Below, piece by piece: positions 1-62,190 of a stretch of DNA of 64,000 bases. Under the pieces are notes generated by a model, which searched no databases, was not told where the DNA came from, and worked only from the letters and a program-made list of their open reading frames with translations. The stretch's first letter is position 1, and each line of letters opens with the position of its first letter. Source of the stretch: Candidatus Gastranaerophilales bacterium (GTDB taxonomy: Bacteria > Cyanobacteriota > Vampirovibrionia > Gastranaerophilales > Gastranaerophilaceae); NCBI GenBank assembly GCA_944326425.1, contig CALVDX010000002.1, forward strand, positions 72,902 to 136,901, in the 5' to 3' direction. A program made the translations under genes and the position numbers.

Positions 1-318
1 ATGACCGCAAATACAGTTCTCGGGTTTTATAACGCTGATAACCTCAAAAATTGCCCTGTCCTGAGCGGCAAAGGTGAAACACAATCTCTATACAACATAA
101 AACCAAACGGCGTATTTATTATCGGTTCAAAGGATTCAGTAACGGGCGACAGCCCCAAAGGGTTTATGGAAACACTGAACTCATGGACAAGAGACCCGAA
201 ACACAATACTGTAATAGAAGTACCAGATGCATCGCATATTTTCTTTGGAAAACACGATATATACGCCCAAACAGTCCTTGATTGTATAACAAACCACAGA
301 TGCTGCGCGGCCGCATAA
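1..318 (+). CDS. C-terminal fragment of an alpha/beta-hydrolase-like protein (5' end outside window)
   Basis: The frame is open from the window edge to a stop at 316-318. The segment VPDASHIFFGKHD resembles the catalytic-His end of dienelactone-hydrolase-type folds. This is a weak call from memory. Confidence 0.3.
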   Translation: MTANTVLGFYNADNLKNCPVLSGKGETQSLYNIKPNGVFIIGSKDSVTGDSPKGFMETLNSWTRDPKHNTVIEVPDASHIFFGKHDIYAQTVLDCITNHRCCAAA

Positions 319-380
319 TTTAGTTTTAAAATCATTTTATAATTTACCAATGCAAAAGCTTTTATTCCTTAAAATTGAAA

Positions 381-411
381 ATATATAAAAGAGAGGGGTT
401 GTAATACCCCT
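381..411 (-). terminator. Intrinsic terminator for the minus-strand 1489->494 gene pair
   Basis: On the minus strand, the hairpin gaggggt-attaca-acccctc (393-411) is followed by a T-rich run (390..381). Confidence 0.5.
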
Positions 412-427
412 CGCCATGGGTTATAAT
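399..427 (+). promoter_or_regulatory. Sigma70-type promoter of sRNA candidate copy 1
   Basis: TTGTAA (399-404), a 17-nt spacer and TATAAT (422-427). The same geometry is conserved at 6834-6862. Confidence 0.5.
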
Positions 428-433
428 AATAGT

Positions 434-492
434 ATAAGCTTGCTTGATGCTCCGGGAGAGAACCGGATGACAACCAAGGAGCCATCTTTTTA
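434..492 (+). ncRNA. Candidate ~60-nt sRNA, copy 1 (hairpin plus U-tail), convergent and antisense to the 3' end of the 494..763 transcript
   Basis: A stem (438-446 pairing with 475-482, one bulge, one G-U) encloses the conserved core ttgatgctccgggagagaaccggatg (444-469) and is followed by a T-run (487-491). A second copy lies at 6869-6931 with an unrelated stem sequence. Confidence 0.5.
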
Positions 493-493
493 T

Positions 494-763
494 TTATTTT
501 ATTAATTTTTCATAAGGTTTTATGTTATAAAAATCTTTAGTTTGCGTATATGCATTATCCCTAATTTGATACACATAATCCTGCCCGTTCCATTTTACTT
601 TTAAATTATCAAAACTTAATGAATCATCACGAATTTTATTATTAGGCAGGTTTATATTTTCAACTGCCCTTTTGATATTTTGTTTTAAAACAGGATACTG
701 TTCTATATATCTGTAACTAAGCTTAATTTTAATAATACTCATATTATACATATTTTTCCTCAT
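494..763 (-). CDS. Hypothetical 89-aa protein, candidate partner or immunity protein of the upstream gene
   Basis: An intact ORF whose ATG overlaps the end of the upstream gene in its shifted frame. A 5'-truncated homolog is present at 6918-7122. Confidence 0.55.
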   Translation of the reverse strand: MRKNMYNMSIIKIKLSYRYIEQYPVLKQNIKRAVENINLPNNKIRDDSLSFDNLKVKWNGQDYVYQIRDNAYTQTKDFYNIKPYEKLIK

Positions 764-1489
764 CTAACCAAAAATCTAAAGCATGCCCCAATTCGGGTTC
801 TTGCATATCTGTTAATCGTTTATTCGGATCAAAATCTCCTGGATAACTTCTCCAATGAGCCTTGACAACTGTACCATCACTGCGTTTATATTCTCTGACA
901 TATACTTCACCTCCATTATCGGGACGATACCCCCCCCAAACAGTTCGTTATTATAACGACTATAACCCGCCAGATTATTTGGCATACTAGATTGCGATAC
1001 ATTATTTTTGTCAGTATTTAATTTAATACCTTCGCGTTCGCCTGTTTTTTCATTAAATCTTCTTTTATCATTTGGAGTTGTAATTAATTCACCTCTTCGC
1101 ATTTTTTTGTATATAATCCTTGATATTATATCATTGATTTCTTCTTTGTTTTTCTTTGTATAATAAAAAAACGGCTTCATTTCACGAGCAATTTCTCTGT
1201 CAATAGAATTATTCCATAAATCCATATTACGTTCACCTTGTGGAGCATTGGGGGTTTCATTTTCATGCATATCTCCCAAAATTTTAGCAACTTTTTCCCC
1301 ATAATTGTGCGCTAAATACCATTGCATATATACATGCTTAAATGCGTCTGCTTCGTTATTCCATGTAGAATGTTTACCAGTGCCTATTTCAAAACCATAT
1401 TTTCGTTGCGCTTTATATGTCGCATCTAAAACTTCTTTATTGAAATTTTCTCTCTGATAACTTATAAATTCATTAATTTTATTTTTCAT
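744..1489 (-). pseudogene. DAF-H / HE / MDLxNN-motif protein (DUF6973-like, from memory), frame-interrupted at a G8 tract; possibly phase-variable or a sequencing error
   Basis: The N-terminal frame (1489->) reads ...WNNEADAFKHVYMQWY...GDMHENE...RNMDLWNNS.... After the G8 tract the annotated frame ends at 812. The other frame reads GGEVYVREYKRSDGTVVKAHWRSYPG... to a stop at 744-746. That frame carries a motif shared with the proteins at 42765..43847 and 60736..62190. Confidence 0.55.
930..937 (-). repeat. Homopolymer G8 (C8 on the plus strand) inside a coding region
   Basis: Read directly from the sequence. A tract of 9 or 6 G would fuse the two conserved reading frames. Confidence 0.9.
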
Positions 1490-1519
1490 ATTTTATCCTT
1501 TCTATGTTATACTACAATT

Positions 1520-1918
1520 ATGAAACTACCAATATTTCACAGTTACTATACTGTTAATCTGTTAATTTATTTACTAATATTTAATTTTGTTCTTGTTCTC
1601 TGTACGCCTTTTGCAGTTTTATCTTTTCTTTTATTTAGAGTCCCAATATACGAACAGGGAATATTTACAATTTTAATTTTTTTACTTAATGTTTATATTA
1701 TTCCCATATTTATACTTATTGCTCTCTTTGAGACAATTTTACGAACTACCGGATTACTGAAAAACAAAGCGCAAACCAATCTGAATTTTATAAAACCGTT
1801 TATCCTCTGGATTATTATAATCATCGGATTTATAGTTTTTGGATTTATGAATACAATCTGCAGACATTCACAAATACCTTATACACAACAGGAACTTGAA
1901 GAATTACGTTTCGATTAA
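1520..1918 (+). CDS. Small polytopic membrane protein (about 4 TM) with an acidic C-terminal tail
   Basis: The ORF has four long hydrophobic segments. It is divergent from the 1489 gene with only 30 nt between the two start codons. Confidence 0.5.
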   Translation: MKLPIFHSYYTVNLLIYLLIFNFVLVLCTPFAVLSFLLFRVPIYEQGIFTILIFLLNVYIIPIFILIALFETILRTTGLLKNKAQTNLNFIKPFILWIIIIIGFIVFGFMNTICRHSQIPYTQQELEELRFD

Positions 1919-2012
1919 TCAAATTCATATTACTTACATTTGCCCATAATTGTGCTCCTTTCTTTTATAGCTACCTCAATTGATACTATCAATCAGTATT
2001 GATAGCAGTTCT

Positions 2013-2353
2013 ACGGGGTTGTTTAATATTTAATCTACAAATCAAGTATACAAATTTTTACAGAAAAACCCCGTCTTACTCGGCGGCATTAAACGGCGTT
2101 ACGTAACGAAAACTCAACGTTTCCGTTACTTCAGCCTGTCTTACCCGCTTTGCGATAAACGGGTACGCTTACGCTTTCACCCTCTGCAAAGCGGTCGCTC
2201 TGCCGCCTCGCGCAAGAAATATTACGAAAACTTTTCTTGCTCACTCGCGTTGAACGGGTCTGCTGGCAAAAACTCCCGTTTTGCCTTCCGCCCCTCGCTC
2301 GTTCGCGCTACATCTTATCTAGGACCCTTTCAGAGAGGGGATTTGACGTCCTA
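2013..2353. ncRNA. GC-rich ORF-free block, candidate structured RNA (class and strand unknown)
   Basis: By hand count, 2101-2340 has 126 G+C in 240 nt, against 13 of 60 in 2401-2460. It contains a series of 6-8 bp hairpins: 2013-2074, 2142-2165, 2172-2193, 2213-2239, 2253-2280 and 2320-2353. No ORF with a start codon is present. Confidence 0.35.
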
Positions 2354-2542
2354 AAAATTGCCTATATTCAAGATATATTCCGCTCAAATTCAATTCAAAT
2401 CGCCGTAGTTATTTAATAGCAGATGTTTTAAACCATAATTTTTAAAATTTAAGTATAAAAACTTCTGATTTAATATATTAAAATACAATATTAATATACT
2501 CAATTTTGTCAATCATGCGGATAAGAAAACAGGATAAACGGA

Positions 2543-2662
2543 TTGCGCCAAGCTTGCAGTCACTATTTCAACGCGGCAAATTTATTTATCCCTTTACCCC
2601 GCCTGCGCCATGCTTGTAGTCATTATTCCAACATGGCAGATACATTTCCCCCCCTGTCGCTT
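2543..2662 (+). repeat. Two tandem ~60-nt direct repeats upstream of the nucleotidyltransferase gene
   Basis: Units 2543-2602 and 2603-2662 agree at about three quarters of the first 50 positions. They are followed by a T7 run at 2663-2669. Confidence 0.7.
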
Positions 2663-2691
2663 TTTTTGTAAAAACCATATACAATAGAATT

Positions 2692-3771
2692 ATGAAACTA
2701 AACGACAACACAGGCAAACTTTACTATGTAGGCGGATGCGTGCGTGATGAAATTCTTGGCAAACAATCCGTTGATATCGACCTGTGTTATGAAGGCGATG
2801 CCATTGACTACGTTACCGCTCAGGGATATAAAATCATTAAAACCCAGAAAAACATAAGAACAGCGCGTGCTCTTATTGAGGGAGAAGAAATCGATTTTGC
2901 CTCAACAAGAAAAGAAATCTACCCCGAAGCCGGACACCTGCCTGTTACAACAGAGACCGGCTGCCCGCTTGAGGATGACCTTACAAGAAGAGATTTTACG
3001 GTAAACTCTATAGCGAAATCGGTAAAAACCGGTGATATTATTGACCCGACAGGCGGTGCGGAAGATATTAAAAGACAACTTCTGCGGGTGCATCATGATA
3101 AAAGCTTTATTGACGACCCGACAAGGATTATTCGCGGTCTAAAATTTTCTCTGCGATTCGGGTTTGAGTTTGATGAACATACTGAAAACCTGAAAGCGGA
3201 TTATTTAAACAATGTAAATTACGATATGAGTTATTCAAGGCTAAAAAAAGAACTTGTCGACTGCTTTAACCTCAATAGCGATGAAGGATTAAACAGGTTT
3301 ATTGAGGAAGGAATGTATAAACTTCTTACCCAAAATAAACCGCAAAAGCCGCTCGCATCAATCGAAGAACTTGTAAAAGAATTTGGTATACAAACCCCGT
3401 GGCTTATATACCTTGGCAGTACAAACCTTAGCCGGCTTGCCTTAGCCAAAACAGAAACTAAAATCATTGAAGGTTTTAATGCAATAAAAGAAAGCGGCGC
3501 GCCATACAAAATTTGCAGCAAATCAGATATTCAATCCGTCATCCTATGGACTGTATTTGTTAATCCGGATAAAGGGCTGCACTATCTTAAAAACCTCCGC
3601 GAAGTCAAACCCTCAGTCACCGGCGAAGAACTGTTAATCATGGGGTGTAAAGGGAAGCAAATCGGAAATATTCTGGATAAAGTACAAGAAGAAAAATTTA
3701 AAACCCCTGACATGTCACATGCTGATGAGTTAAGTATTGTAAAGAGCATACTAAATAAAAATAAACTATAA
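2692..3771 (+). CDS. cca: tRNA nucleotidyltransferase / poly(A) polymerase family protein (CCA-adding-enzyme-like, short form)
   Basis: Carries the motifs GGCVRDEILG...DIDL, RRDFTVNS and DDPTRIIRGLKF, which are typical of class II nucleotidyltransferases. Confidence 0.75.
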   Translation: MKLNDNTGKLYYVGGCVRDEILGKQSVDIDLCYEGDAIDYVTAQGYKIIKTQKNIRTARALIEGEEIDFASTRKEIYPEAGHLPVTTETGCPLEDDLTRRDFTVNSIAKSVKTGDIIDPTGGAEDIKRQLLRVHHDKSFIDDPTRIIRGLKFSLRFGFEFDEHTENLKADYLNNVNYDMSYSRLKKELVDCFNLNSDEGLNRFIEEGMYKLLTQNKPQKPLASIEELVKEFGIQTPWLIYLGSTNLSRLALAKTETKIIEGFNAIKESGAPYKICSKSDIQSVILWTVFVNPDKGLHYLKNLREVKPSVTGEELLIMGCKGKQIGNILDKVQEEKFKTPDMSHADELSIVKSILNKNKL

Positions 3772-3832
3772 TCATTATAAATACTGATTTTAATACTATT
3801 TTTAGTAAAAATTATTAACTTTAGTTAAATTC

Positions 3833-3861
3833 TTGTCAACACAATGATTTTAGTGTATAAT
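3833..3861 (+). promoter_or_regulatory. Sigma70-type promoter upstream of pflB
   Basis: TTGTCA (3833-3838), a 17-nt spacer and a TG-extended TATAAT (3854-3861). Confidence 0.55.
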
Positions 3862-3964
3862 ACGAATTAACGGCGAAATAAATTTGCCTGCGACATATCT
3901 TTTTATAAATCCGAGATATTTCACAAAATATAAATTGGAGATAGACAAAATAAAGGAGGTTAAC

Positions 3965-6169
3965 ATGGTTACCCAGATTGTGGATAATACCGCCATTGAT
4001 GTGGCATCGTTTATTAAGAATAACTATACACCTTACTATGGTGATGACAGTTTCTTAAGCGGCCCCACACAAAGAACAATGTACGTGTGGAGCAAAGTAA
4101 GTGAATTAATGAAGGAGGAGCACAAAAAAGGTGTTCTTGATGCTGATACTTCAACTCCTTCATCAATTACATCACACGGCGCGGGCTACATAGATAAGGA
4201 TAATGAACTTATCGTAGGCTTGCAGACAGACGCCCCGTTAAAACGTGCAATTATGCCAAACGGAGGCTACAGAATGGTTGAAGCTTCTTGTAAAGCGTAC
4301 GGTCTGCCTGTAGATGAAGAACTTAAGACTATTTACACAAAATACAGAAAAACTCACAATGACGGTGTATTTGATGTTTATACCGAAGCTATCAAAAAAT
4401 GCAGACACTCTGCAATTATTACAGGCCTGCCGGATGCTTACGGAAGGGGCAGAATTATCGGTGACTACAGACGTGTTGCACTTTACGGTATCGACAGACT
4501 TATTGAAGAAAAACAGAAAGACAAACTTTCAACCGAAAATATCCCGATGACTGAGGATAATATCAGGCTGAGAGAAGAATTGAGCGAACAAATCCGCGCG
4601 CTTAAAGATATGAAAGAAATGGCGCTCTCATACGGTATTGACATAAGCAAGCCGGCTGAAAGCTTCCGGGAGGCTGTTCAGTTTACATACTTCGGCTACC
4701 TTGCTGCAATCAAAGACCAGAATGGCGCGGCAATGTCACTGGGCAGAGTTTCTACATTCCTTGATATTTATTCGGAAAGAGATCTCAAATCAGGCAAAAT
4801 AACCGAAGAACAAGCGCAGGAAATAATGGACGATTTCATTATTAAATTGAGAATGGTACGTTTCTTAAGAACACCTGAATACAATGACCTGTTCAGCGGC
4901 GACCCGGTCTGGACAACTGAAAGCATCGGCGGCATGACAATGGACGGCAGACCGCTTGTTACAAAAAACTCTTTCAGAATGCTCCAAACACTAATAAACC
5001 TTGGCCCTGCTCCGGAACCGAATATGACAGTTCTCTGGAGTAAAGACCTGCCAAAAGGTTTCAAAGATTACTGTGCAAGAGTAAGTATTGAAACAAGCGC
5101 AATACAGTACGAAAACGACGACCTGATGCGTGAATCTTTCGGCGATGATTACGCAATTGCCTGCTGTGTTTCTCCGCTAATCATCGGTAAAGAAATGCAA
5201 TTCTTCGGCGCACGCGCAAACCTTGCCAAGGCACTTCTTTACACAATTAACGGCGGGGTTGATGAAAGAACCGGCGAAAAAGTTGCAGACTTTGAACCGA
5301 TTACAGACGAATACCTCGACTACGACACAGTAATGTCAAAGTTTGATAAGGTTATGGACTGGCTCGCGTACACTTATGTAAGCGCATTGAATATTATTCA
5401 CTATATGCACGACAAATATAACTACGAAAAAGCACAGCTTGCACTTATGGATTCAAATGCCGTACGCAAACTCGGATGCGGAATTGCCGGTTTCAGTGTT
5501 GTAACCGACTCACTCTCTGCAATTAAATATGCAAAAGTTAAAGTTATAAGAGAAAACGGAATTGCAAAACACTTTGAAATAGAAGGCGACTACCCGAAAT
5601 ACGGAAATAACGATGACAGAGCAGATTCTATCGGGGTTGATTTAGTTAACCGCTTTATGTCAAAGATTGAAAAAATCCAGACATACAGAGGCGCAATCCC
5701 GACACAATCAATCCTTACAATTACAAGTAACGTTGTGTACGGAAAGAAAACCGGTGACACACCGGACGGCAGAGTTGCGGGCGTTCCGTTCTCACCGGGA
5801 GCTAACCCGTTCAACGGCAGAGACTGCAAAGGCGCACTTGCATCACTTTGTTCTGTTGCAAAACTTCCGTTTAAGAATGCTAAAGACGGAATCTCAAACA
5901 CTTTCAGCATTCTGCCGGAAACATTGGGAAAATCAAGAGATGAACAAATCGGCAACCTGACCGGTATGATGGACGGATATTTTGAAAAAGGTGCACAGCA
6001 TTTGAATGTTAACGTTCTTAACCGCGAAACATTGCAGGATGCTATGGAACACCCTGAAAACTACCCGCAGTTGACAATCCGTGTGAGCGGATACGCTGTT
6101 AACTTCATTAAACTCACAAGAGAACAACAGCTTGATGTTATTAACAGAACCTTCCACTCTTCAATATAG
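3965..6169 (+). CDS. pflB: Pyruvate formate-lyase (glycyl radical enzyme)
   Basis: The active-site segment IACCVSP and the glycyl-radical motif RVSGYAVNF are present. The start is placed at ATG 3965, preceded by AAGGAGG (3953-3959). The tracked start at 3884 looks like an upstream over-extension. Confidence 0.95.
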
Positions 6170-6193
6170 CGGGTAATACCGAAATAAGTTAAA

Positions 6194-6230
6194 AATACCG
6201 CGCCGTGTAAATACCTGCGCGGTATTTTGA
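6194..6230 (+). terminator. Intrinsic terminator after pflB
   Basis: Hairpin aataccgcgc...gcgcggtatt followed by tttt. Confidence 0.6.
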
Positions 6231-6241
6231 TCCGTTAATAA

Positions 6242-6523
6242 TTAAGCATTTCTGTCCCAGAACCCCGGAGCATCAATATTGCTGCCAATATCGTTTTTCA
6301 ACCCGTCGCTAAAACTCGGGGCATTAATATTTGCGTCAACCTTTTCTTTAGCCCCATCGTTCATCCTATCGGTGAAACTCGGAGCATTAATATTGTTATT
6401 AACAGCGTTTTTAGCAGCCTGTTCTCCTGTTTTTACGACATCTTCAAGCGAACCCGGTTTCTGACCGTTCTGCCTCATGGCAGCCATACCCATTCTAAAG
6501 AAGGGATTAAAATTAATTGGCAT
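6242..6523 (-). CDS. Small repeat protein with three N-I-[ND]-A-P-[SG]-F-x-D repeats
   Basis: ATG 6523 (MPINFNPFF...) is preceded by AAAGGAAA. An alternative ATG lies at 6541. The repeats read NINAPSFTD, NINAPSFSD and NIDAPGFWD. Confidence 0.55.
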   Translation of the reverse strand: MPINFNPFFRMGMAAMRQNGQKPGSLEDVVKTGEQAAKNAVNNNINAPSFTDRMNDGAKEKVDANINAPSFSDGLKNDIGSNIDAPGFWDRNA

Positions 6524-6623
6524 AATAGTGTTTCCTTTCATTGTTTGTATTTGCTATTGCAAATTATGCTGACAAAATACATAACGGCACATTTTTTAGA
6601 AACTTTAGCCCACCCCACCACAT

Positions 6624-6648
6624 CATATCATATCATATCATATCATAT
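6624..6648. repeat. Pentanucleotide repeat (CATAT)5, which is (ATATG)5 on the transcribed minus strand
   Basis: Five perfect units plus a partial unit, lying between the -10 box and the G-rich tract of the 6242 gene leader. The homologous leader at 32019-32028 has two units. Confidence 0.9.
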
Positions 6649-6653
6649 AGGGG

Positions 6654-6682
6654 ATTATATCAAGGCTTCAGCCCCATGTAAA
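6654..6682 (-). promoter_or_regulatory. Sigma70-type promoter of the 6242..6523 gene
   Basis: On the minus strand: TTTACA (6682..6677), a 17-nt spacer and a TG-extended TATAAT (6659..6654). Confidence 0.55.
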
Positions 6683-6688
6683 CTTATA

Positions 6689-6706
6689 TTTACATTTTGT
6701 TACATT
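6689..6706 (+). promoter_or_regulatory. HLR1-like direct repeat TTTACATT-TT-GTTACATT
   Basis: A perfect match to (G/T)TTACA(T/A)(T/A)-N2-(G/T)TTACA(T/A)(T/A), located just upstream of the -35 of the minus-strand promoter. Confidence 0.5.
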
Positions 6707-6833
6707 GTAATATTCATTAAAATATTGCTTAATATTTCTTAATAATAGCACGTCTTTGGGGGATAATTTTTGAAAGGAAGAAAAAGCATTCAAAAGGAAA
6801 TAATAAAATTGGAAAATATATAAAAGCGAGGGG

Positions 6834-6862
6834 TTGAAATCACCCTCGCGATAGGTTATAAT
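6834..6862 (+). promoter_or_regulatory. Sigma70-type promoter of sRNA candidate copy 2
   Basis: TTGAAA (6834-6839), a 17-nt spacer and TATAAT (6857-6862). Confidence 0.5.
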
Positions 6863-6868
6863 GTTATT

Positions 6869-6931
6869 GATAGTTCTTTTGATGCTCCGGGAGAGAACCG
6901 GATGTCTCTCAAAAGAACTATCGCCTTTTTA
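6869..6931 (+). ncRNA. Candidate ~60-nt sRNA, copy 2
   Basis: A perfect 14-bp stem (6869-6882 pairing with 6909-6922) encloses the same core (6879-6904) as copy 1 and is followed by a T5 run (6926-6930). Confidence 0.5.
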
Positions 6932-7122
6932 ATTGCTCAATCAAAGTACTATAGGGTTTAATATTATAAAAATCTTTGGTTTTATGTTGATGATTATTTC
7001 TAATCTGGTAAACATATTCCTGCCCATTCCAATTCACTTTTAGGTTATCAAAATTTACTGCATCAATTCTACTTTTATTAAGCAGCAAGTTTATATTTTT
7101 AACTGCCTTTTTGATATTTTAT
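6918..7122 (-). pseudogene. 5'-truncated orphan homolog of the 89-aa protein at 494..763
   Basis: The minus frame reads NIKKAVKNINLLLNKSRIDAVNFDNLKVNWNGQEYVYQIRNN...KDFYNIKPY..., collinear with residues ~29-89 of the 494..763 protein. An in-frame TAA lies immediately upstream and no start codon is present. Confidence 0.6.
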
Positions 7123-7257
7123 ATAAACAAAGGTGTATCACGAGCAAGAAACTCAGTGCAGGGGCACGGGGACACATAGCCCCGAATAAATATTATAGTG
7201 GCAGTAGCCAACTACAAGAATATCCGATAAATATTTTTATTATATAATTAATCTGTT

Positions 7258-7980
7258 ATGGAGATTTGCAATTATCACTCAATACAGACAATGGGGACAC
7301 TGGACGGCCCGGGTATCAGGTATGTACTATTTTTGCAGGGGTGTTGTTTCAGGTGTCTTTTCTGCCATAATCCTGATACATGGTTTGGAAAAGCAAACTC
7401 GATGACTACAGATGAATTCGTGCAGGATGTCTTGAAATACAAAGTATTCTATGACTCATCAGGAGGCGGTGTAACTGTTTCCGGCGGTGAACCATTATTA
7501 CAAATACCTTTTTTGATTGAAGCTTTTAGAAAACTTAAAGAATACAGTATCCACACAGCCATAGACACTTGCGGATATATTGATATTACTGATGAATTAA
7601 AAGAACTTATGAAGTATACAAACCTCGTTATGCTTGATATTAAACATCTTGATAATAATATACACAAAGAACTTACCGGCAAGCCGAATGATAAAGTCCT
7701 TCAATTCCTTGATTTTTTAAAAGAAAATGAGGTGCAAACAAGAATACGCCAGGTCTTAACCCCCGGATACACAATGGAGGATGAGTACATTACAAGCCTG
7801 ATAAAACTGCTGAAAAATTACAAATTGGAAAAAGTAGAACTCCTGCCCTATCATGACATGGCGCAGGATAAATACAAAAAACTCGGACTGGAATACAAGT
7901 TAAATGCCCGCATGCCTTCAAAGGAGGAAGTTGCATTAATTAAAGAAAAATTTATACAGGAAGGTTTTAATACAATATAA
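7258..7980 (+). CDS. pflA: Pyruvate formate-lyase activating enzyme (radical SAM)
   Basis: CX3CX2C cluster (GCCFRCLFCHNPDTW) and typical PflA length and motifs (GGVTVSGGEPLLQ). Confidence 0.9.
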   Translation: MEICNYHSIQTMGTLDGPGIRYVLFLQGCCFRCLFCHNPDTWFGKANSMTTDEFVQDVLKYKVFYDSSGGGVTVSGGEPLLQIPFLIEAFRKLKEYSIHTAIDTCGYIDITDELKELMKYTNLVMLDIKHLDNNIHKELTGKPNDKVLQFLDFLKENEVQTRIRQVLTPGYTMEDEYITSLIKLLKNYKLEKVELLPYHDMAQDKYKKLGLEYKLNARMPSKEEVALIKEKFIQEGFNTI

Positions 7981-8008
7981 AAGGCTCTAAAAATATTTTC
8001 AGAGCCTT
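7981..8008. terminator. Hairpin between convergent pflA and the GH108 gene
   Basis: An 8-bp stem, aaggctct...agagcctt. Confidence 0.4.
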
Positions 8009-41289: not shown

Positions 41290-41745
41290 TTAATTATTAT
41301 TTCTATTTGCACACACCTGCTCTATCTCTCTGCGCAGTTCTAAATTCTTTGCTTTCAGTTTTAATATTGGCGTTGAAAAAATTATAGTCATACAGAATAA
41401 AATAAACAGGTAAATAAAGTAAAAAGTTATCCAATCATTTTTCATATAAAACACTACTAAATAACATAATATCACAGCAACAATAAGAACATACAATATT
41501 CTATATTTTATCCAGTCAATTGCAAAACATAATTCTTTTGATACCAACATTGGAGCCGTTAGAAATATAATACCTATATTCAAAATACCTAAATCGGTAA
41601 ATGCAATTTTTACATCAGGAAATACGACAAATATATCACCCATGAATCCTAATGTTAATAAAATCACAACTATTTTAGCTATAATATTTACCCATTGACT
41701 AATCCGTTTAGAGAATTTCTCTTTTAAAACAATGTATTTGTACAA
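41290..41745 (-). CDS. Cassette A, small polytopic membrane protein (4 TM) with the conserved tail PILKLKAKNLELRRE
   Basis: Homologous to the C-terminal half of the 58833..59693 protein. A 33-nt stretch is identical at 41339-41371. Confidence 0.6.
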   Translation of the reverse strand: MYKYIVLKEKFSKRISQWVNIIAKIVVILLTLGFMGDIFVVFPDVKIAFTDLGILNIGIIFLTAPMLVSKELCFAIDWIKYRILYVLIVAVILCYLVVFYMKNDWITFYFIYLFILFCMTIIFSTPILKLKAKNLELRREIEQVCANRNNN

Positions 41746-42701
41746 GAGCCATAAAGGGAATAACTCTTTGTATAATCTTCTTCTGCTTCCTTATACAACT
41801 GCTTGCTCCGCTGATGCAGTTTGTATAACGGCAAACGAAAAATCATTACCAGTGCGATTATTATCATGGCAAATTTTACAACATACGTCATCGGGGCGGG
41901 AGTATCGTTTGTTGAAGTTATGGATACCACAACAGAACGATTAACATAATAAATCCCCGCGCCAAAGGCTATTAGAACGTAAACTATATGACGGTATAAA
42001 TAACGAATCAAATCGTTCAATTTTTGTGCGTTTGAAAGAGAAATATAGAATATTAAAAATATTATAACCGGCATTAAGTAATAAAAATCGGTTTCTAGCA
42101 ATAAATCATACCGGACACGGCAAAGATAATAAATAAATATCGGCAAAATAACCGGTAATATTTGGATAAATAAATTGTTGAAGTATTTGTTATTAATCAT
42201 AACTAATTTATTCATTTTGATACAATTTTCAGCCCGCCACAGGAAATATACAACTAAAAAAGCAACGTAATATATCCACATTGCCACAGCCGCAGCCATA
42301 AGCCAGAAGAGCAGCATTACATTTGAAAATAATGTATAAAATGCGTACGCAAAAATGAGCAGAATTAAAGGAAATAAAATAAAAAAAATACTTAATATTG
42401 TTTGTTTTTTTACAGAATATTTTATTTTAAAAAGACAGACTATTAATCTTCTATTAATAGTCAATTTTTTAATCAAAATACCTAATATTATAACAACAAA
42501 CGGAGATGCGAAAAACAACGGATAATGCAAAAAGAGTTTTACGAAATCAAAAATTGCGTTAACAATTCCCGCATTATCCGGAGCATCATAAAAAACAAAA
42601 AACATAGTTGCAAATGCGCCGGAAATAACTGATAATATAAACAGTAATATAGTTTCAAAATTTAAATATTCTTTTATTTTTATCATAATAAATTTAACCA
42701 A
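41724..42701 (-). CDS. Cassette A, polytopic membrane protein (~9 TM)
   Basis: Long hydrophobic ORF directly downstream of 42765..43847. The C-terminal tail PLYKLHQRSKQLYKEAEE is related to the tails of the other three cassette membrane proteins. Confidence 0.6.
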   Translation of the reverse strand: MVKFIMIKIKEYLNFETILLFILSVISGAFATMFFVFYDAPDNAGIVNAIFDFVKLFLHYPLFFASPFVVIILGILIKKLTINRRLIVCLFKIKYSVKKQTILSIFFILFPLILLIFAYAFYTLFSNVMLLFWLMAAAVAMWIYYVAFLVVYFLWRAENCIKMNKLVMINNKYFNNLFIQILPVILPIFIYYLCRVRYDLLLETDFYYLMPVIIFLIFYISLSNAQKLNDLIRYLYRHIVYVLIAFGAGIYYVNRSVVVSITSTNDTPAPMTYVVKFAMIIIALVMIFRLPLYKLHQRSKQLYKEAEEDYTKSYSLYGSCTNTLF

Positions 42702-42764: not shown

Positions 42765-43847
42765 CTATTTCCAACCGGGAATTTTTGTCAACTCTTCTTT
42801 AGTATACTTTACATTAATTAAAAGAACATAATTAGTTAACATGCCTTTTTCCTGCTGAATATAGGCATTATTGTTAAAAACTGTCAACAGGTCATCACCC
42901 GTTCTATATTCAAAATCATAAAAGTCCGGAATTTGAAAATACAAATCACCATTAGTATCAATATATGGGCTAAAAATATGGGCTTCCCCAATAAGCGCAC
43001 CCAAATCAGGATCAGAATTATAAAACTTCAAACCGGGTATTGTTTTCCCTATTAACATACCATTTTTTATTTGTTCTTTATTTTCAACCAATAACCTGAT
43101 TAAAGCGTGATTTTGTTTTACACTTTTCACCAAAGAAGATTCTCTATCCGGTGATATGATTATACAATCATCGGTTATTTTATTATTTATTTGTTTTATA
43201 TGCTGCTTAATATTTTGATTTTTTATATCATTAACCCTAGCCACCGTAGTACCTTCATCAACATTTCGGCAACCTTGCAATGCATATTTGTAATAACGCA
43301 CTGCTGTAGGATATTTTTGAGCATAGCTGCCGGCACCGATACCTGTTTTAGCAGCTATAGCTTGAAACTTATACCCATCCGGACTTCTCAGTACATCCTC
43401 CTTAATATTACCCCCATTCTTTTCTTTAGATTCATTCTTAACAAGTTTTTCCGTTTTCAAATTTGCATCTGCTGCAAATCCTGTCGGCATCCCGTAACGT
43501 TTCTGTACATCTCTGTCCATATAATCATTTATCTCTTTCTCAAGTTCTGATTTGTATTCTTGGGGTGACTTCATTACAGGTTTATTTGGATTCCCGTGTC
43601 CCGCTTTTGAACGGTAATGCGCCCGTACTACTGTGCCATCCTGTCTTGTATATTCTTGAACAAAGACGACATCATCCGAGCTTGCAAGTTCCGAATTTCT
43701 TGGGAAACCGATTTTTCCGTACTGGTAGTCCAATGCCTTCTGGTAATATTTGCCCTCTTCATTATCCATCGCTATTACATCTTCGTGACTAAATATCCGG
43801 TTATCGTTCATAACCTCATTGATGTAATCTCTCAAACTATTTTGCAT
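42765..43847 (-). CDS. Cassette A, soluble protein with conserved N- and C-terminal modules and a variable core
   Basis: The N-terminal ~110 aa and C-terminal ~110 aa are collinear with the 60736..62190 protein. Carries VVFVQEYTRQDGTVVRAHYRS. SD GGGAGG. No signal peptide. Confidence 0.65.
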   Translation of the reverse strand: MQNSLRDYINEVMNDNRIFSHEDVIAMDNEEGKYYQKALDYQYGKIGFPRNSELASSDDVVFVQEYTRQDGTVVRAHYRSKAGHGNPNKPVMKSPQEYKSELEKEINDYMDRDVQKRYGMPTGFAADANLKTEKLVKNESKEKNGGNIKEDVLRSPDGYKFQAIAAKTGIGAGSYAQKYPTAVRYYKYALQGCRNVDEGTTVARVNDIKNQNIKQHIKQINNKITDDCIIISPDRESSLVKSVKQNHALIRLLVENKEQIKNGMLIGKTIPGLKFYNSDPDLGALIGEAHIFSPYIDTNGDLYFQIPDFYDFEYRTGDDLLTVFNNNAYIQQEKGMLTNYVLLINVKYTKEELTKIPGWK

Positions 43848-59752: not shown

Positions 59753-60682
59753 TTACCACAAATAGCCCTGCTTTAACTCCTCTCTTGCATATTCATTTTT
59801 AAAACGCAGCTTTCGCATCGGTTCATAAAGTATAAGCAATACAATATACATCAAGACAAATGCGTAGCAGGTCAAATAAAATATCGTTTTACCTTGAAAT
59901 CCATAGCCTGCAAAAACTAATCCAATCAACAATATTAACGGTATAATAAAATATTTTTTCGATAGACTAACAATTTTAGTCATTCCGGAGGATACAGATA
60001 ATGGCACCAGAAAAAGTATTGTAACAAAGTATAACACCCAAACAAAAACTAACCCTTCATTCTCAATTTCCATATTATGCACCAAGTAAACAGGCAGCAT
60101 TGATACCCCTATTAAAAGCAGCACCTGAATTATGATATTATTTAATACAGTCCAAAGTACCAGTTTGATTTTTTGAGACAAATGTCCTTTTATCCCCCAA
60201 ACCTCATAAATTAACATTATCGGAAATGCAGGTGTATAAAAGTATGACATTATAGCGACAACAATCGCATATAATTGTTTTACCAACACAGTTTTTGCAA
60301 TAAATACATTATCATTACCGGAAACTATTGCAGAATATACAAGAAAAACCTGCAAAAATGACATTAAAAAGTATAACAACCACCTTATTTTAGATTGTTT
60401 TTTCAATTTATAGGCAAAACCTAAAAGCTTTTTATCAGAAGTTAATAAAAAAACACACAAATACGCAGCCGCAACAAAAAATCCCAAATTAGGAAATGTC
60501 ATTAAAGCTGCCAAATCGTCCGGTCGTTTTAAAGAATCTTCTGCATAAGCTACCCACATGTAAAAATATAACATGTACACCAATAACATAAACAAACTAA
60601 TTAAAACCAACAAAACATACTCGATTATTGATCTATTTTTAATAGTTGCTAACATTTGTTCTTTTAATTTAATAAAAGGCAT
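59753..60682 (-). CDS. Cassette B, polytopic membrane protein (~9 TM)
   Basis: Occupies the same position as 41724..42701. Tail: EPMRKLRFKNEYAREE. Confidence 0.6.
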   Translation of the reverse strand: MPFIKLKEQMLATIKNRSIIEYVLLVLISLFMLLVYMLYFYMWVAYAEDSLKRPDDLAALMTFPNLGFFVAAAYLCVFLLTSDKKLLGFAYKLKKQSKIRWLLYFLMSFLQVFLVYSAIVSGNDNVFIAKTVLVKQLYAIVVAIMSYFYTPAFPIMLIYEVWGIKGHLSQKIKLVLWTVLNNIIIQVLLLIGVSMLPVYLVHNMEIENEGLVFVWVLYFVTILFLVPLSVSSGMTKIVSLSKKYFIIPLILLIGLVFAGYGFQGKTIFYLTCYAFVLMYIVLLILYEPMRKLRFKNEYAREELKQGYLW

Positions 60683-60735: not shown

Positions 60736-62190
60736 TTATTTCCAGCCGGGCAAGTTCGAGAGTTCTTCTTTTGTATATGTAATATTCAATAGCAATACAT
60801 AATTTGTCAATCTGCCAATTAATTGTTGTATATTCGCAGAATTATTCATTATAGAAAATAAAACAGCATCTTTACTCCATTTTCTTCTTTCAAAATCATA
60901 GTAATCAGGTATTTGCAGATGTAAATTACCACTGTTATCAATATAAGCATTATACACATGTGTCTCCCCAAGCAGAGTATCTAAGTCTCTGTCATTATAG
61001 AAACTAATATCGTTAACTATCTTACCTTTGAAATTTCCACTTTTTATCGCATTTTGATTTTGAATGATAAACTCTTTTAGACGATTACTGTTTTTCACCT
61101 CTTTTATAAGAGGCGATTGTGGTCTGGGCATAACTACAAGCGTATTTTCATTTATTGTATTGTTCATTTTAAATAAATGCCTTTTTAATATAGGATTACT
61201 AACGGACATCATATAAGTATATTCATTATCCAAATCTTTTTTAATATATTCTTCCGGTTCAAGAGATAGTCTATAATAATTTGCTGATAATGGGCGATTA
61301 CGATTAATCAGTTTAAAACTACTTAAAGTTTTATTTTTTGCAATAGCTGCTTGTATAGGACTCAATAAAATTTCAGGATACAATGTCACAATATTTTTAA
61401 CTTTATCTTTAAACCCTAAATCATTTTTATACAAAAATAATTTATCCATTATTATAGACTTAACATCTTCTGCTGTTATTTGCTTATTTGGCAGTACAGC
61501 TTTTATGTTTCTATACTTATGATCCCTACTATATTCTCCGGCCAAATCATCCAAGACTCCTAAATACCTTCGCTCCGGCAATTCAATATTTTTTATCTCC
61601 ATCTCCCTGCCGGTATAGGGTTTGGAAATTGGTTTAGGTTGGGGCGATGGTTTTATATTTGGTTGTATATTCACTGCAGGTATTTCATTACTTACATCGT
61701 GCGACATTTCTATCTGACCTGTCAGCATTCCGTTTGATGGGTATAACGGGGCTTGATCAGGCTCTATATCACCAGTATCCGGAGCCACATACTCTAATTC
61801 CGTTTCAGGAAGTATATCTATAAGCTCCTGCAGGTAGTCTATATCTTCATCCGCTCTATTTACCCCTGCCCCGTAACGCTCCTGGACATCTCTATCCATA
61901 TAATCATTTATCTCTTTTTCAAGTTCTGATTTGTATTCTTGAGGTGACTTCATTACAGGTTTATCAGGGGCTGCATGTCCCGCCTTTGAGCGGTAATGCG
62001 CCCTTACTACCGTTCCGTCCTGTCTTGTATATTCTTGAACAAAAACAACATCTGATGAGTTTGCACGTTCAGCATTCATTGGAAATCCTATCTTTCCATA
62101 CTGATAATCAAGAGCTTTTTGATAGTACTTTCCTTCTTCATTATCCATCGCTAGTACATCTTCATAGCTGAATATTCTGTTGTCATTCAT
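60736..62190 (-). CDS. Cassette B, soluble protein with conserved N- and C-terminal modules and a longer variable core
   Basis: Collinear with the 42765..43847 protein at both ends. An SD-preceded 11-codon ORF (62225..62190) ends in TAATG, overlapping this ATG. Confidence 0.65.
   Translation of the reverse strand: MNDNRIFSYEDVLAMDNEEGKYYQKALDYQYGKIGFPMNAERANSSDVVFVQEYTRQDGTVVRAHYRSKAGHAAPDKPVMKSPQEYKSELEKEINDYMDRDVQERYGAGVNRADEDIDYLQELIDILPETELEYVAPDTGDIEPDQAPLYPSNGMLTGQIEMSHDVSNEIPAVNIQPNIKPSPQPKPISKPYTGREMEIKNIELPERRYLGVLDDLAGEYSRDHKYRNIKAVLPNKQITAEDVKSIIMDKLFLYKNDLGFKDKVKNIVTLYPEILLSPIQAAIAKNKTLSSFKLINRNRPLSANYYRLSLEPEEYIKKDLDNEYTYMMSVSNPILKRHLFKMNNTINENTLVVMPRPQSPLIKEVKNSNRLKEFIIQNQNAIKSGNFKGKIVNDISFYNDRDLDTLLGETHVYNAYIDNSGNLHLQIPDYYDFERRKWSKDAVLFSIMNNSANIQQLIGRLTNYVLLLNITYTKEELSNLPGWK

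What the first reader, a model, noticed from the sequence alone, without database searches (positions are those of the whole stretch)
744..1489. A G8 homopolymer separates a DAF-H/HE/MDLxNN domain from a C-terminal module carrying the cassette motif EY-R-DGTVV-AH-RS
Downstream of the G8 tract (930-937), the annotated frame of the 225-aa ORF runs through a non-conserved tail to 812. If the tract were 9 or 6 G, translation would instead give GGEVYVREYKRSDGTVVKAHWRSYPGDFDPNKRLTDMQEPELGHALDFWLDEEKYV, with the motif at 908..846 and the stop at 744-746. That reading matches VVFVQEYTRQDGTVVRAHYRS in both cassette proteins (about 43670..43608 and 62049..61987). It also ends overlapping the ATG of the 89-aa downstream ORF, which is a typical coupled pair. 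The motif therefore links three loci in this window. The tract makes this gene a candidate for slipped-strand phase variation, a recent pseudogene or a homopolymer sequencing error. The N-terminal domain resembles, from memory, the DUF6973-type domain found in polymorphic-toxin-like proteins.
Basis: partly seen in the sequence, partly recalled or inferred. Interest (0 to 1): 0.65.

Follow-up and report, generated by a model that had tools for sequence, protein, structure and literature searches.

The report
Frameshifted BteO-like effector gene, Gastranaerophilales
In one clone of an uncultured chicken-gut Gastranaerophilales bacterium, two extra G in a short G run have broken a gene for a likely antibacterial weapon protein; the break is real and looks like an ordinary recent knockout, not an on/off switch.

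Summary
A G8 run (930-937, minus strand) shifts the frame of a DUF6973 gene. Reading it as G6 or G9 restores a C-terminal module with the hairpin EVYVREYKRSDGTVVKAHWRS, and the stop then falls at 744-746.

- **Ancestral allele:** it is G6. The exact 247-aa G6 protein is public, on conspecific contigs that match the window over 744-2137 apart from the run and 0-1 SNP. A sister lineage has GGAGGG.
- **G8 allele:** it recurs in at least 10 contigs from several samples and assemblers, always on one haplotype. No G7 or G9 was seen, so sequencing error is excluded. A clone-specific +2 slippage knockout is favoured, and phase variation is unsupported.
- **Domain identity:** DUF6973 is the domain of BteO, a Bacteroides fragilis T6SS effector that binds OmpA. 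The residues essential in BteO are conserved here.
- **Partner gene:** the conserved neighbour is the divergent 132-aa membrane ORF (1520-1918), not the 89-aa ORF. The 89-aa ORF is a fragment homologous to the C-terminus of a 398-aa cassette-type protein.
- **Hairpin module:** it sits at either end of many Gastranaerophilales effector-like proteins (lipase, PBECR1 nuclease, DUF6973). This family appears to be undescribed.

The parts
744..1489 (-). Whole effector gene as it reads in the intact (G6) allele. It has a DUF6973/BteO-like domain, a disordered linker and a C-terminal hairpin module, 247 aa in all. In this window it is broken by +2 G.
   Evidence: The exact 247-aa G6 product, P0122, is in public assemblies.
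1025..1489 (-). DUF6973 (BteO-like) domain, residues 1-155. It is intact in the G8 allele.
   Evidence: Pfam PF22322, 54.6 bits against a cut-off of 27. The AF2 model has pLDDT 85.8 and pTM 0.83. BFVD top hits are DUF6973 proteins. The profile hits the BteO chain 9UU0_A at E 8.3e-5.
930..937 (-). G8 homopolymer (C8 on the + strand). It is G6 in conspecific strains and GGAGGG in the sister lineage.
812..929 (-). Out-of-frame tail of the G8 allele (IVPIMEVKYMSENINAVMVQLSRLIGEVIQEILIRIND*). It is not conserved in any homologue.
744..929 (-). C-terminal module in the displaced frame. It comprises a beta-hairpin (EVYVREYKRSDGTVVKAHWRS, 846-908) and an acidic helix (KRLTDMQEPELGHALDFWLDEEKYV).
   Evidence: AF2 strands E195-202 and E208-215. 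Profile search. tblastn of p398 residues 60-112 gives E 1.4e-4.
1520..1918 (+). Divergently transcribed 132-aa polytopic membrane ORF, the conserved neighbour of DUF6973 genes. It is the putative immunity protein (inferred).
   Evidence: A homologue lies directly upstream on the opposite strand in about 32 of 80 related genome loci, often in two copies. It is 100% identical between the G8 and G6 strains. Hydropathy is shown.
494..763 (-). 89-aa ORF (85 aa from the ATG at 751). It is a stand-alone copy of the last ~80 residues of a cassette-type protein, so probably an orphan C-terminal fragment and not an immunity gene.
   Evidence: 76% identical to p398 residues 318-397, E 3e-38. Absent from L001 and L012. 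Only 86% nt identity between haplotypes, against 100% for the flanking genes.
393..412 (-). Terminator-like hairpin followed by a T run, downstream of the small ORF. It lies within a ~150-nt element that is repeated at 6812-6906.
42765..43847 (-). Cassette protein 1 (360 aa), with the hairpin motif at 43608-43670 inside a conserved N-terminal ~107-aa domain.
60736..62190 (-). Cassette protein 2 (484 aa), with the hairpin motif at 61987-62049. Its N-terminal 107 aa are 90% identical to cassette protein 1.
6921..7133 (-). Second orphan fragment of the same C-terminal domain. It is 87% identical by tblastn to p398 residues 328-398, and the ORF 6918..7088 is 93% identical by BLASTP.

Best explanation
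**What the gene is**
- It is a chromosomal gene of a chicken-gut Candidatus Gastranaerophilales (Melainabacteria) bacterium.
- In its normal form it encodes a 247-aa modular effector-like protein with three parts.
  - An N-terminal DUF6973 domain of the BteO type.
  - A disordered linker.
  - A ~57-aa C-terminal module, made of a basic beta-hairpin and an acidic helix.

**What happened in this clone**
- The linker-module junction is normally TTT GGG GGG TAT.
- Slipped-strand mispairing has lengthened the G6 run to G8.
- Translation therefore leaves the frame after the Gly residues, adds 38 unrelated residues and stops at 812. The module is lost.
- This is a recent, heritable, clone-specific loss-of-function or truncation allele. 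It is not an artefact and not a demonstrable phase switch.

**Inferred function of the intact protein**
- The divergent 132-aa membrane protein protects the producer.
- The hairpin module serves delivery or targeting, because the same module is attached to unrelated toxic domains at either end.
- On this reading, losing the module disarms the effector while the putative immunity gene stays intact.

**Shown versus inferred**
- Shown: the alleles, their distribution, the homologies and the gene neighbourhoods.
- Inferred: the toxicity, the target, the immunity role and the role of the module.
For: **The alleles**
- G8 and both frames are read directly from the sequence.
- Full-length homologues of 245-252 aa read through the site.
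- The exact G6 product (P0122) is public. The G9, G7 and G10 products are not.
- G6 contigs L005-L011 carry GGGGGG. They match the window over 744-2137 apart from the 2-nt indel and 0-1 SNP.
- The 90%-identical orthologue has GGAGGG.
- The G8 product lies on at least 10 contigs. L002-L004 are 100% identical to the window, from ONAT22-1 and BRZ_DF assemblies. Logan contigs of runs X1-X3 also carry G8.
- Runs X4-X10 carry G6, and X5 is from the same study as X1-X3.
- G/C runs are a general indel hot spot between the two strains. Four of nine small indels in 12.3 kb lie in G/C runs, including C7 versus C8 at 2648.
- Such runs are not enriched in the window or in 560 kb of related loci.

**The BteO link**
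- Pfam DUF6973 scores 54.6 bits on this protein.
- The family profile hits the BteO chain 9UU0_A at E 8.3e-5.
- The aligned BteO segment itself scores 48.1 bits on DUF6973, against a cut-off of 27.
- BteO residues R143, H144, H167, E168, D187 and D191 are needed for toxicity and OmpA binding (PMC12541434).
- They align with the family's near-invariant K51/H52, H75/E76, E86 and D90.

**Partner gene and module**
- Membrane ORF homologues lie directly upstream in about 32 of 80 loci.
- The full module is found on lipase-class-3 proteins, on DUF6973 proteins and at the N-terminus of cassette proteins.
- The cassette N-terminal domain is fused to DUF6973, PBECR1 and other C-termini.
- The hairpin is nearly invariant in 81 family members.
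Against: **Limits on the allele evidence**
- No raw reads could be examined, only assembled contigs, and these drop minority variants. Within-population length heterogeneity is therefore untested.
- A +2 step is less common than +1, and no G7 intermediate was seen.

**Limits on the functional reading**
- Foldseek found no PDB match for either AF2 model, and did not retrieve 9UU0. The BteO link therefore rests on sequence only.
- No T6SS or other dedicated secretion genes were recognised in the window.
- The protein has no signal peptide or TM helix, so the export route is unknown.
- The neighbouring membrane ORF is unlike BtiO, the periplasmic OmpA mimic that neutralises BteO.
- The truncated product keeps the whole DUF6973 domain, so it may retain some activity.
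Confidence: 0.7

Rival explanations
1. Phase-variable contingency locus. The G run slips at high frequency, so cells switch the module, and with it effector delivery, ON (6 or 9 G) and OFF (7 or 8 G).
For: The run lies inside an ORF at a domain junction. Both an in-frame and an out-of-frame length exist in nature on near-identical sequence. G/C runs are indel hot spots in this species. A sister genome has another G8 that splits an ORF.
Against: Only lengths 6 and 8 were found, and they differ by 2. G7, G9 and G10 products are absent from 15 billion proteins. Each length is fixed on its own haplotype, with G8 on patch A and G6 on patch B. Single unbranched contigs at depth 10-29 carry G8. The run is not conserved, being GGAGGG in the orthologue. 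Such runs are not enriched. G6 is short for fast slippage.
Confidence: 0.15
2. The extra two G are a homopolymer sequencing or assembly error, and the real genome has an intact gene.
For: Homopolymers are error-prone on some platforms. The window comes from a metagenome-derived assembly.
Against: The same G8 appears in at least 10 contigs from different samples. These were built by different assemblers: scaffolds, SPAdes NODE contigs and Logan contigs. Contigs with 100% identical flanks give G6 in other samples of the same studies. X5 contrasts with X1-X3, and BRZ_DP with BRZ_DF. A context-driven error would affect both alleles alike.
Confidence: 0.02
3. Recoding. A -1 ribosomal frameshift on G_GGG_GGT, or transcriptional slippage on the run, regularly restores the module in the G8 clone, so the gene is still functional.
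For: A -1 shift on the run would give exactly the G9 product (read from the sequence). Long homopolymers can cause polymerase slippage (general knowledge).
Against: The in-frame G6 allele is ancestral and widespread, so the frameshift is not a conserved feature. The sequence read shows no obvious stimulatory structure downstream of the run. No RNA data were available.
Confidence: 0.03
4. The 89-aa ORF is the cognate immunity or antitoxin partner, translationally coupled to the repaired gene.
For: The stop and start overlap, and a GAGGA Shine-Dalgarno-like sequence lies before the ATG at 751. The same arrangement is seen in conspecific G6 strains.
Against: The ORF is homologous to the C-terminal 80 residues of a 398-aa cassette protein and lacks the first third of that domain. 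A second fragment lies at 6921-7133. The ORF is absent from the 90%-identical orthologous loci L001 and L012. It is also absent from the other 78 DUF6973 genome loci and is not found after lipase-module genes. It is hypervariable, at 86% nt identity, while the flanking genes are 100% identical.
Confidence: 0.1

Closest known systems
BteO, a GA3 type VI secretion effector of Bacteroides fragilis (PDB 9UU0; He et al., PNAS 2025, PMC12541434)
   Same: Both carry the same Pfam domain, DUF6973. The aligned BteO segment scores 48 bits and this protein 54.6 bits. The residues required for BteO toxicity and OmpA binding align with the family's near-invariant AFKH, MHE, E86 and NMD positions. The model is helical with two short strands, as the paper describes for BteO.
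   Different: This protein has no N-terminal TM helix. No T6SS locus was recognised in the window. It has an extra C-terminal hairpin module. Its neighbour is a polytopic membrane ORF, not a periplasmic OmpA-mimic like BtiO. The host is a Melainabacteria-group organism, not Bacteroides. No structural match could be obtained.
Polymorphic toxin systems (Rhs, CDI and LXG-type; general knowledge of the class)
   Same: A constant module is joined to interchangeable toxic domains: DUF6973, lipase class 3, PBECR1 nuclease, LPD3-like and unknown domains. Small adjacent genes are likely to protect the producer. Orphan C-terminal fragments lie near full genes.
   Different: The constant module is only about 60-110 aa. 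It can sit at the N- or the C-terminus. It matches no Pfam, NCBIfam or PHROG family. No associated secretion apparatus is known.
Homopolymeric-tract contingency (phase-variable) genes of Neisseria, Haemophilus, Campylobacter and Helicobacter (general knowledge)
   Same: There is a G run inside an ORF, and its length decides whether the C-terminal part is translated. The mechanism is slipped-strand mispairing.
   Different: The run is not conserved. Only two lengths are seen, 2 nt apart, each fixed on one haplotype. No intermediate lengths were found. The genome shows no enrichment of such runs.
Polyvalent proteins of phages and conjugative elements (LPD and PBECR domains; Pfam PF18798, PF18809)
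   Same: Relatives of the cassette proteins carry PBECR1 or LPD3 domains. The DUF6973 fold also occurs in large proteins of uncultured Caudovirales.
   Different: The window loci are chromosomal, among housekeeping and flagellar genes. tblastn with the cassette N-terminal domain finds nothing in 50,697 phage records.

Membership tests
DUF6973 / BteO-like effector domain | Match to Pfam PF22322 above the gathering score | tested here: met
   54.6 bits against a cut-off of 27, E 1e-14, residues 20-129.
DUF6973 / BteO-like effector domain | BteO itself belongs to the same sequence family | tested here: met
   The family profile hits 9UU0_A at E 8.3e-5. The aligned 65-aa BteO segment scores 48.1 bits on PF22322.
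DUF6973 / BteO-like effector domain | Conservation of the residues needed for BteO toxicity and OmpA binding (R143, H144, H167, E168, D187, D191) | tested here: met
   They align with K51/H52, H75/E76, E86 and D90, which are invariant or nearly so in 81 homologues. R to K and D to E are conservative changes.
DUF6973 / BteO-like effector domain | Same three-dimensional fold as BteO | tested here: inconclusive
   The AF2 domain model is confident (pLDDT 85.8) and matches predicted viral DUF6973 proteins at TM 0.60. Foldseek against the PDB returned nothing at E 0.001 or better and did not list 9UU0.
DUF6973 / BteO-like effector domain | Delivery by a type VI secretion system and location in a T6SS locus | tested here: not met
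   No T6SS family appeared among the genes of the window that were scanned or that have precomputed Pfam hits. The rest of the genome was not examined.
DUF6973 / BteO-like effector domain | Toxicity in the periplasm, binding of OmpA C-terminal domains and neutralisation by an adjacent immunity protein | not testable with these tools
   These need expression and binding assays. The adjacent conserved gene is a polytopic membrane ORF with no OmpA-like family match.
Phase-variable contingency locus | Repeat tract in the ORF whose length sets the reading frame | tested here: met
   G8 is out of frame; G6 and G9 are in frame.
Phase-variable contingency locus | Tract-length heterogeneity within a population, including +/-1 variants | not testable with these tools
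   All runs are held as contigs only. Contigs show one length per strain. G7, G9 and G10 products are absent from the protein collection.
Phase-variable contingency locus | ON and OFF lengths on the same genetic background | tested here: not met
   All retrieved G8 contigs carry the window's version of 376-650. All retrieved G6 contigs carry the other version. The sample is limited, at about 9 sequenced loci.
Phase-variable contingency locus | Tract conserved as a tract among relatives, and such tracts over-represented in the genome | tested here: not met
   The orthologue has GGAGGG. One run of 8 or more was seen against 0.17-0.40 expected in the window. Only 6 runs of 7 or more occur in 560 kb of related loci, and none lies in a DUF6973 gene.
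Polymorphic toxin system | Constant module joined to alternative toxic domains in different proteins | tested here: met
Polymorphic toxin system | Cognate immunity gene next to the toxin gene | tested here: inconclusive
   The divergent membrane ORF is a conserved neighbour in about 32 of 80 loci. Unrelated small membrane ORFs lie next to the reversed-architecture proteins. No functional test was possible.
Polymorphic toxin system | Recognised secretion or trafficking domain | tested here: not met
   No Pfam, NCBIfam or PHROG family matches the module or the cassette N-terminal domain.

The most novel reading that the evidence does not exclude
The ~60-110-aa unit of helix plus beta-hairpin ([FY][ST]xEDIxxM..E..ALDY... 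/ VxVxxYxRxDGTxVxAHxRS) may be an undescribed delivery or targeting tag. It would mark a whole arsenal of interbacterial effectors in Gastranaerophilales: BteO-like, lipase, RNase and unknown toxins. It works at either end of the protein. Its loss through the G8 frameshift would then disarm this effector in one successful clone. The tag could be used to list effectors and to find the still unknown export route in a phylum with no described antagonism system.
Probability: 0.3. Interest if true: 0.7.

Novelty: new variant of a known kind. Interest (0 to 1): 0.45.

Why it matters
**The frameshift itself is ordinary.** It is a slippage knockout of one accessory gene in one clone.

**The context is worth more.**
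The link made here to the experimentally characterised effector BteO gives the Pfam family a testable function.
- It suggests that uncultured gut Gastranaerophilales carry many BteO-like and other effector genes built around a shared, uncatalogued hairpin module.
- No paper on toxin or antagonism systems in this group turned up.

**Natural intact and broken alleles on otherwise identical sequence** offer a ready-made comparison of what the module does. They could also show whether losing a weapon while keeping the immunity gene is tolerated in the chicken gut.

Tried and rejected
- **Read laying, first attempts.** Laying contigs on a 1101-nt stretch at 90% likeness gave almost no coverage. A 451-nt stretch at the default setting worked.
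- **Read-level tract counts.** These were impossible because every run is held as contigs. No usable RNA run was found, and X21 and X11 do not span the run.
- **Homologue search with the 67-aa module alone.** It returned only two short ORFs. The exhaustive profile search was used instead.
- **Structure searches.** Foldseek against the PDB found no match with the full-length model or the domain-only model.
- **Family libraries.**
  - NCBIfam and PHROGs gave nothing for the effector, the small ORF, the membrane ORFs or the cassette proteins.
  - Rfam found nothing in 1-8000.
- **Phage link.** tblastn of two versions of the cassette N-terminal domain found nothing.
- **Gene conversion from the orphan copy at 6921-7133 as the source of the divergent patch 376-650.** Rejected, because both haplotypes are about equally distant from the orphan copy, at 76-78%.
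- **G/C runs as a selected class in these genomes.** Rejected. The G7 in L027 lies in a terminator, not in the gene.
- **The 95-aa membrane ORFs next to the reversed-architecture DUF6973 proteins.** They show no detectable homology to the 132-aa family.
- **LPD3 assignment of the small ORF's parent domain.** The evidence is weak. BLASTP gives E 1e-7, but only to the N-terminal part that the small ORF lacks. The relative P0233 has a Pfam E of 0.0057.
Full report
**1. The observation**

On the minus strand the sequence reads ...AAC GAA CTG TTT GGGGGGGG TAT CGT CCC..., so the run of eight G lies at 930-937.
- The ORF finder gives a 225-aa ORF at 812..1489. After ELFGGG it runs through IVPIMEVKYMSENINAVMVQLSRLIGEVIQEILIRIND*.
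- The frame displaced by one base reads YRPDNGGEVYVREYKRSDGTVVKAHWRSYPGDFDPNKRLTDMQEPELGHALDFWLDEEKYV*, with the stop at 746..744.
- A pattern for the hairpin core occurs at only three places in all six frames of the window: 849-890, 43611-43652 and 61990-62031.
- The module aligns with the 484-aa cassette protein at E 5e-10.
- The run alone is not improbable: 0.17-0.40 runs of 8 or more are expected per window.
- It matters because homologues read through it.

**2. Which allele is ancestral, and is G8 real?**

*Homologues and exact look-ups*
- A search with the repaired protein found full-length homologues of 245-252 aa. The closest is P0001, at 90% identity and 248 aa. All carry the module in frame.
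- The G6 product (247 aa...LFGGYRPDNGG...) is in the public collection as P0122. The G9, G7 and G10 products are not.

*Where each allele is found*
- DNA of six contigs encoding P0122, and of the GTDB species representative, shows CTGTTTGGGGGGTATCG. The representative is a Candidatus Gastranaerophilales MAG, BRZ_DP bin12.
- The 90%-identical orthologue (L001, and likewise L012) has GGAGGG, so no run at all.
- The frameshifted 225-aa product lies on at least 10 contigs. The three that were read are 100% identical to the window over up to 6.5 kb.
- Logan contigs of runs X1-X3 carry G8. Those of X4-X10 carry G6.
- X5 belongs to the same study as X1-X3. BRZ_DF (G8) and BRZ_DP (G6) belong to one project.

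*Sequence around the run*
- Between the window and the G6 contigs, 744-2137 is identical apart from the two G and 0-1 SNP. This stretch holds the module, the domain, the 30-nt intergenic region and the membrane ORF.
- By contrast, 376-743 is only 83-86% identical.
- All retrieved G8 contigs carry one version of that patch, and all retrieved G6 contigs carry the other.

*Conclusions*
- The difference is a true polymorphism. An error tied to sequence context would affect identical flanks alike.
- G6 is ancestral and G8 is a +2 insertion fixed in one clone.
- There is no sign of switching: no intermediate lengths, complete linkage to haplotype, a non-conserved run, and no enrichment of G/C runs.
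- G/C runs are nevertheless the commonest site of small indels between the two strains. Four of nine lie in such runs, including C7 versus C8 at 2648-2654. This fits ordinary slippage mutation.
- Read-level heterogeneity could not be examined, because only contigs are held and no usable RNA run was found.

**3. What the protein is**

*The DUF6973 domain*
- Pfam places residues 20-129 in DUF6973, at 54.6 bits against a cut-off of 27. No paper mentions that name.
- A profile of 81 homologues matched one solved structure, 9UU0_A, at E 8.3e-5. This is MBP fused to BteO residues 83 to the end.
- The aligned 65-aa BteO segment scores 48.1 bits on DUF6973. BteO is therefore a member of this family.

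*What is known about BteO* (PMC12541434)
- It is a Bacteroides fragilis GA3 T6SS effector.
- It is toxic only in the periplasm and is described as non-enzymatic.
- It is neutralised by BtiO, a periplasmic mimic of that domain.
- Toxicity and OmpA binding need R143, H144, H167, E168, D187 and D191.

*Conservation and structure*
- Using the offset of 296 between chain and protein numbering, which I derived from the alignment, those residues align with K51/H52 (AFKH), H75/E76 (MHE), E86 and D90 (NMD). All are invariant or nearly so in the family.
- AF2 models give a confident helical domain followed by two short strands. pLDDT is 85-97 for residues 1-155 in the full-length model, and pLDDT 85.8 with pTM 0.83 for the domain alone.
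- This matches the paper's description of helices plus two strands.
- Foldseek found no PDB match and did not list 9UU0, so the fold link is unconfirmed.
- Against predicted viral structures, the top hits are DUF6973 proteins of uncultured Caudovirales (TM 0.60). Two large proteins follow, of 900 and 1438 aa.

**4. The module**

*Structure and conservation*
- After a disordered linker (residues 161-191), the model shows a beta-hairpin at 195-202 and 208-215. This is the motif.
- The hairpin is nearly invariant in the 81 homologues, and most of them end right after it.

*Distribution* (profile of hairpin plus tail against 1.84 billion representatives)
- The complete module sits at the C-terminus of lipase-class-3/Mbeg1-like proteins.
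- It sits at the C-terminus of DUF6973 proteins.
- It sits near the N-terminus of cassette-type proteins.
- The hairpin alone is a widespread tandem repeat, VxVxxYxRxDGTxVxxHxRxxP. One protein has up to 15 copies. It occurs in proteins with kinase, peptidoglycan-binding, nuclease and other domains.
- No Pfam family covers it.

*Partner domains* (search with the 398-aa cassette-type protein of a sister genome, here called p398, L012 1698-2894)
- The cassette N-terminal domain (NDNRI[FY][ST]xEDIxxM...ALDYQ...hairpin) is joined to different C-termini.
- These are a C-terminal DUF6973 in P0278, P0284 and P0336, a PBECR1 nuclease in P0235-P0238, and several unknown domains.
- In P0248, which carries LPD3, the helix-plus-hairpin unit lies instead at the C-terminus.

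*Interpretation*
- The module accompanies unrelated toxic-looking domains and works at either end.
- This suggests delivery or targeting rather than catalysis. That is an inference.

**5. The neighbours**

*The 132-aa membrane ORF*
- The 132-aa polytopic membrane ORF (1520-1918, + strand) starts 30 nt from the effector's start and is transcribed divergently.
- Homologues sit in the same position in about 32 of 80 DUF6973 loci from named genomes. Nearly all of these are Gastranaerophilales or Melainabacteria, and the ORF is often present in two copies.
- It is the best candidate for an immunity protein, though it is unlike BtiO.

*The 89-aa ORF*
- It is 76% identical to residues 318-397 of p398.
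- It lacks the first third of that domain.
- A second fragment lies at 6921-7133.
- It is missing from the orthologous loci L001 and L012 and from all the other DUF6973 genome loci.
- It does not follow lipase-module genes.
- It lies in the hypervariable patch.
- tblastn with p398 maps residues 60-112 onto the displaced module (905..762) and residues 318-397 onto 724..485.
- So the 3' end of this locus resembles a cassette gene that has lost its middle.
- I read the small ORF as an orphan C-terminal fragment, as seen near other polymorphic toxin genes. It is not a coupled antitoxin.

*The wider window*
- The window is otherwise ordinary chromosome: pflB, pflA, PFOR, relA, feoB, mnmE, queC and the flagellar export genes fliPQR and flhBA.
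- No secretion system beyond the flagellar one was recognised.

**6. Verdict**

- The event is a recent, real +2 slippage in a G6 run. In one widespread clone it removes the conserved hairpin module from a BteO-like effector and leaves the putative immunity gene untouched.
- As a frameshift it is ordinary.
- The wider picture has not, as far as the searches here show, been described. It is a hairpin-tagged, modular effector family in Gastranaerophilales whose DUF6973 members are relatives of BteO.
- That picture is the part worth following up.

Noticed in passing
window 6921-7133 (-), ORF 6918..7088: An orphan fragment, 87-93% identical to the last ~71 residues of the 398-aa cassette-type protein of a sister genome (L012 1698-2894). 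It has no N-terminal part, and lies between pflB and pflA.
   Followed up: partly
window 6228-6700 and 6796-7005: Two stretches are absent from the G6 strain L005, so this is a variable islet. The first holds a 99-aa ORF (6242..6541, -) with NINAPSF[TS]D repeats and no family match.
   Followed up: partly
window 2648-2654: The window's only other G/C run of 7 or more is a C7, lying between genes upstream of the CCA-adding enzyme gene. It is C8 in strain L005. Four of nine small indels between the two strains over 12.3 kb lie in G/C runs.
   Followed up: partly
window 376-531 and 6812-6906; L012 2900-3001 and 4834-4930: A ~100-150-nt element is repeated downstream of the small ORF and of the orphan fragment. 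In the sister genome it follows both p398 and the DUF6973 gene. It includes the terminator-like hairpin at 412..393. No Rfam match.
   Followed up: partly
window 376-743 against L005-L011: A sharply bounded divergent patch, 83-86% identical, sits next to 1.4 kb of 100% identity. This indicates a recombination mosaic just 3' of the effector gene. Each version is linked to one run length.
   Followed up: partly
L012 690-697: In the sister genome another G8 run splits an ORF into 198-aa and 134-aa pieces that read on in another frame. This is a second apparent G-run frameshift in this group.
   Followed up: no
window 41724-42701 (-) and 59753-60682 (-): Each cassette protein gene is followed by a 309-325-aa polytopic membrane ORF with no family match, and then by another unknown ORF. 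The flagellar export genes fliPQR and flhBA lie between the two cassettes.
   Followed up: partly
P0278, P0284, P0336; L099 3001-3759; L101 3001-3756: These proteins have the reversed architecture, with the hairpin domain N-terminal and DUF6973 C-terminal. Each is followed, on the opposite strand, by a 95-aa three-TM ORF with no detectable homology to the 132-aa family.
   Followed up: partly
BFVD hits A0A6J7WY85, A0A6J5T7E5, A0A6J5KNR3, A0A5Q2W5P5: The DUF6973 fold also occurs in proteins of uncultured Caudovirales. These include a 900-aa PcfJ-like protein and a 1438-aa protein, which hints at use in phage polyvalent proteins.
   Followed up: no
P0130, P0131, P0137: Short ORFs of 70-104 aa consist of little more than the C-terminal module. 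They may be contig-end or frameshift remnants of lipase-type effector genes.
   Followed up: no
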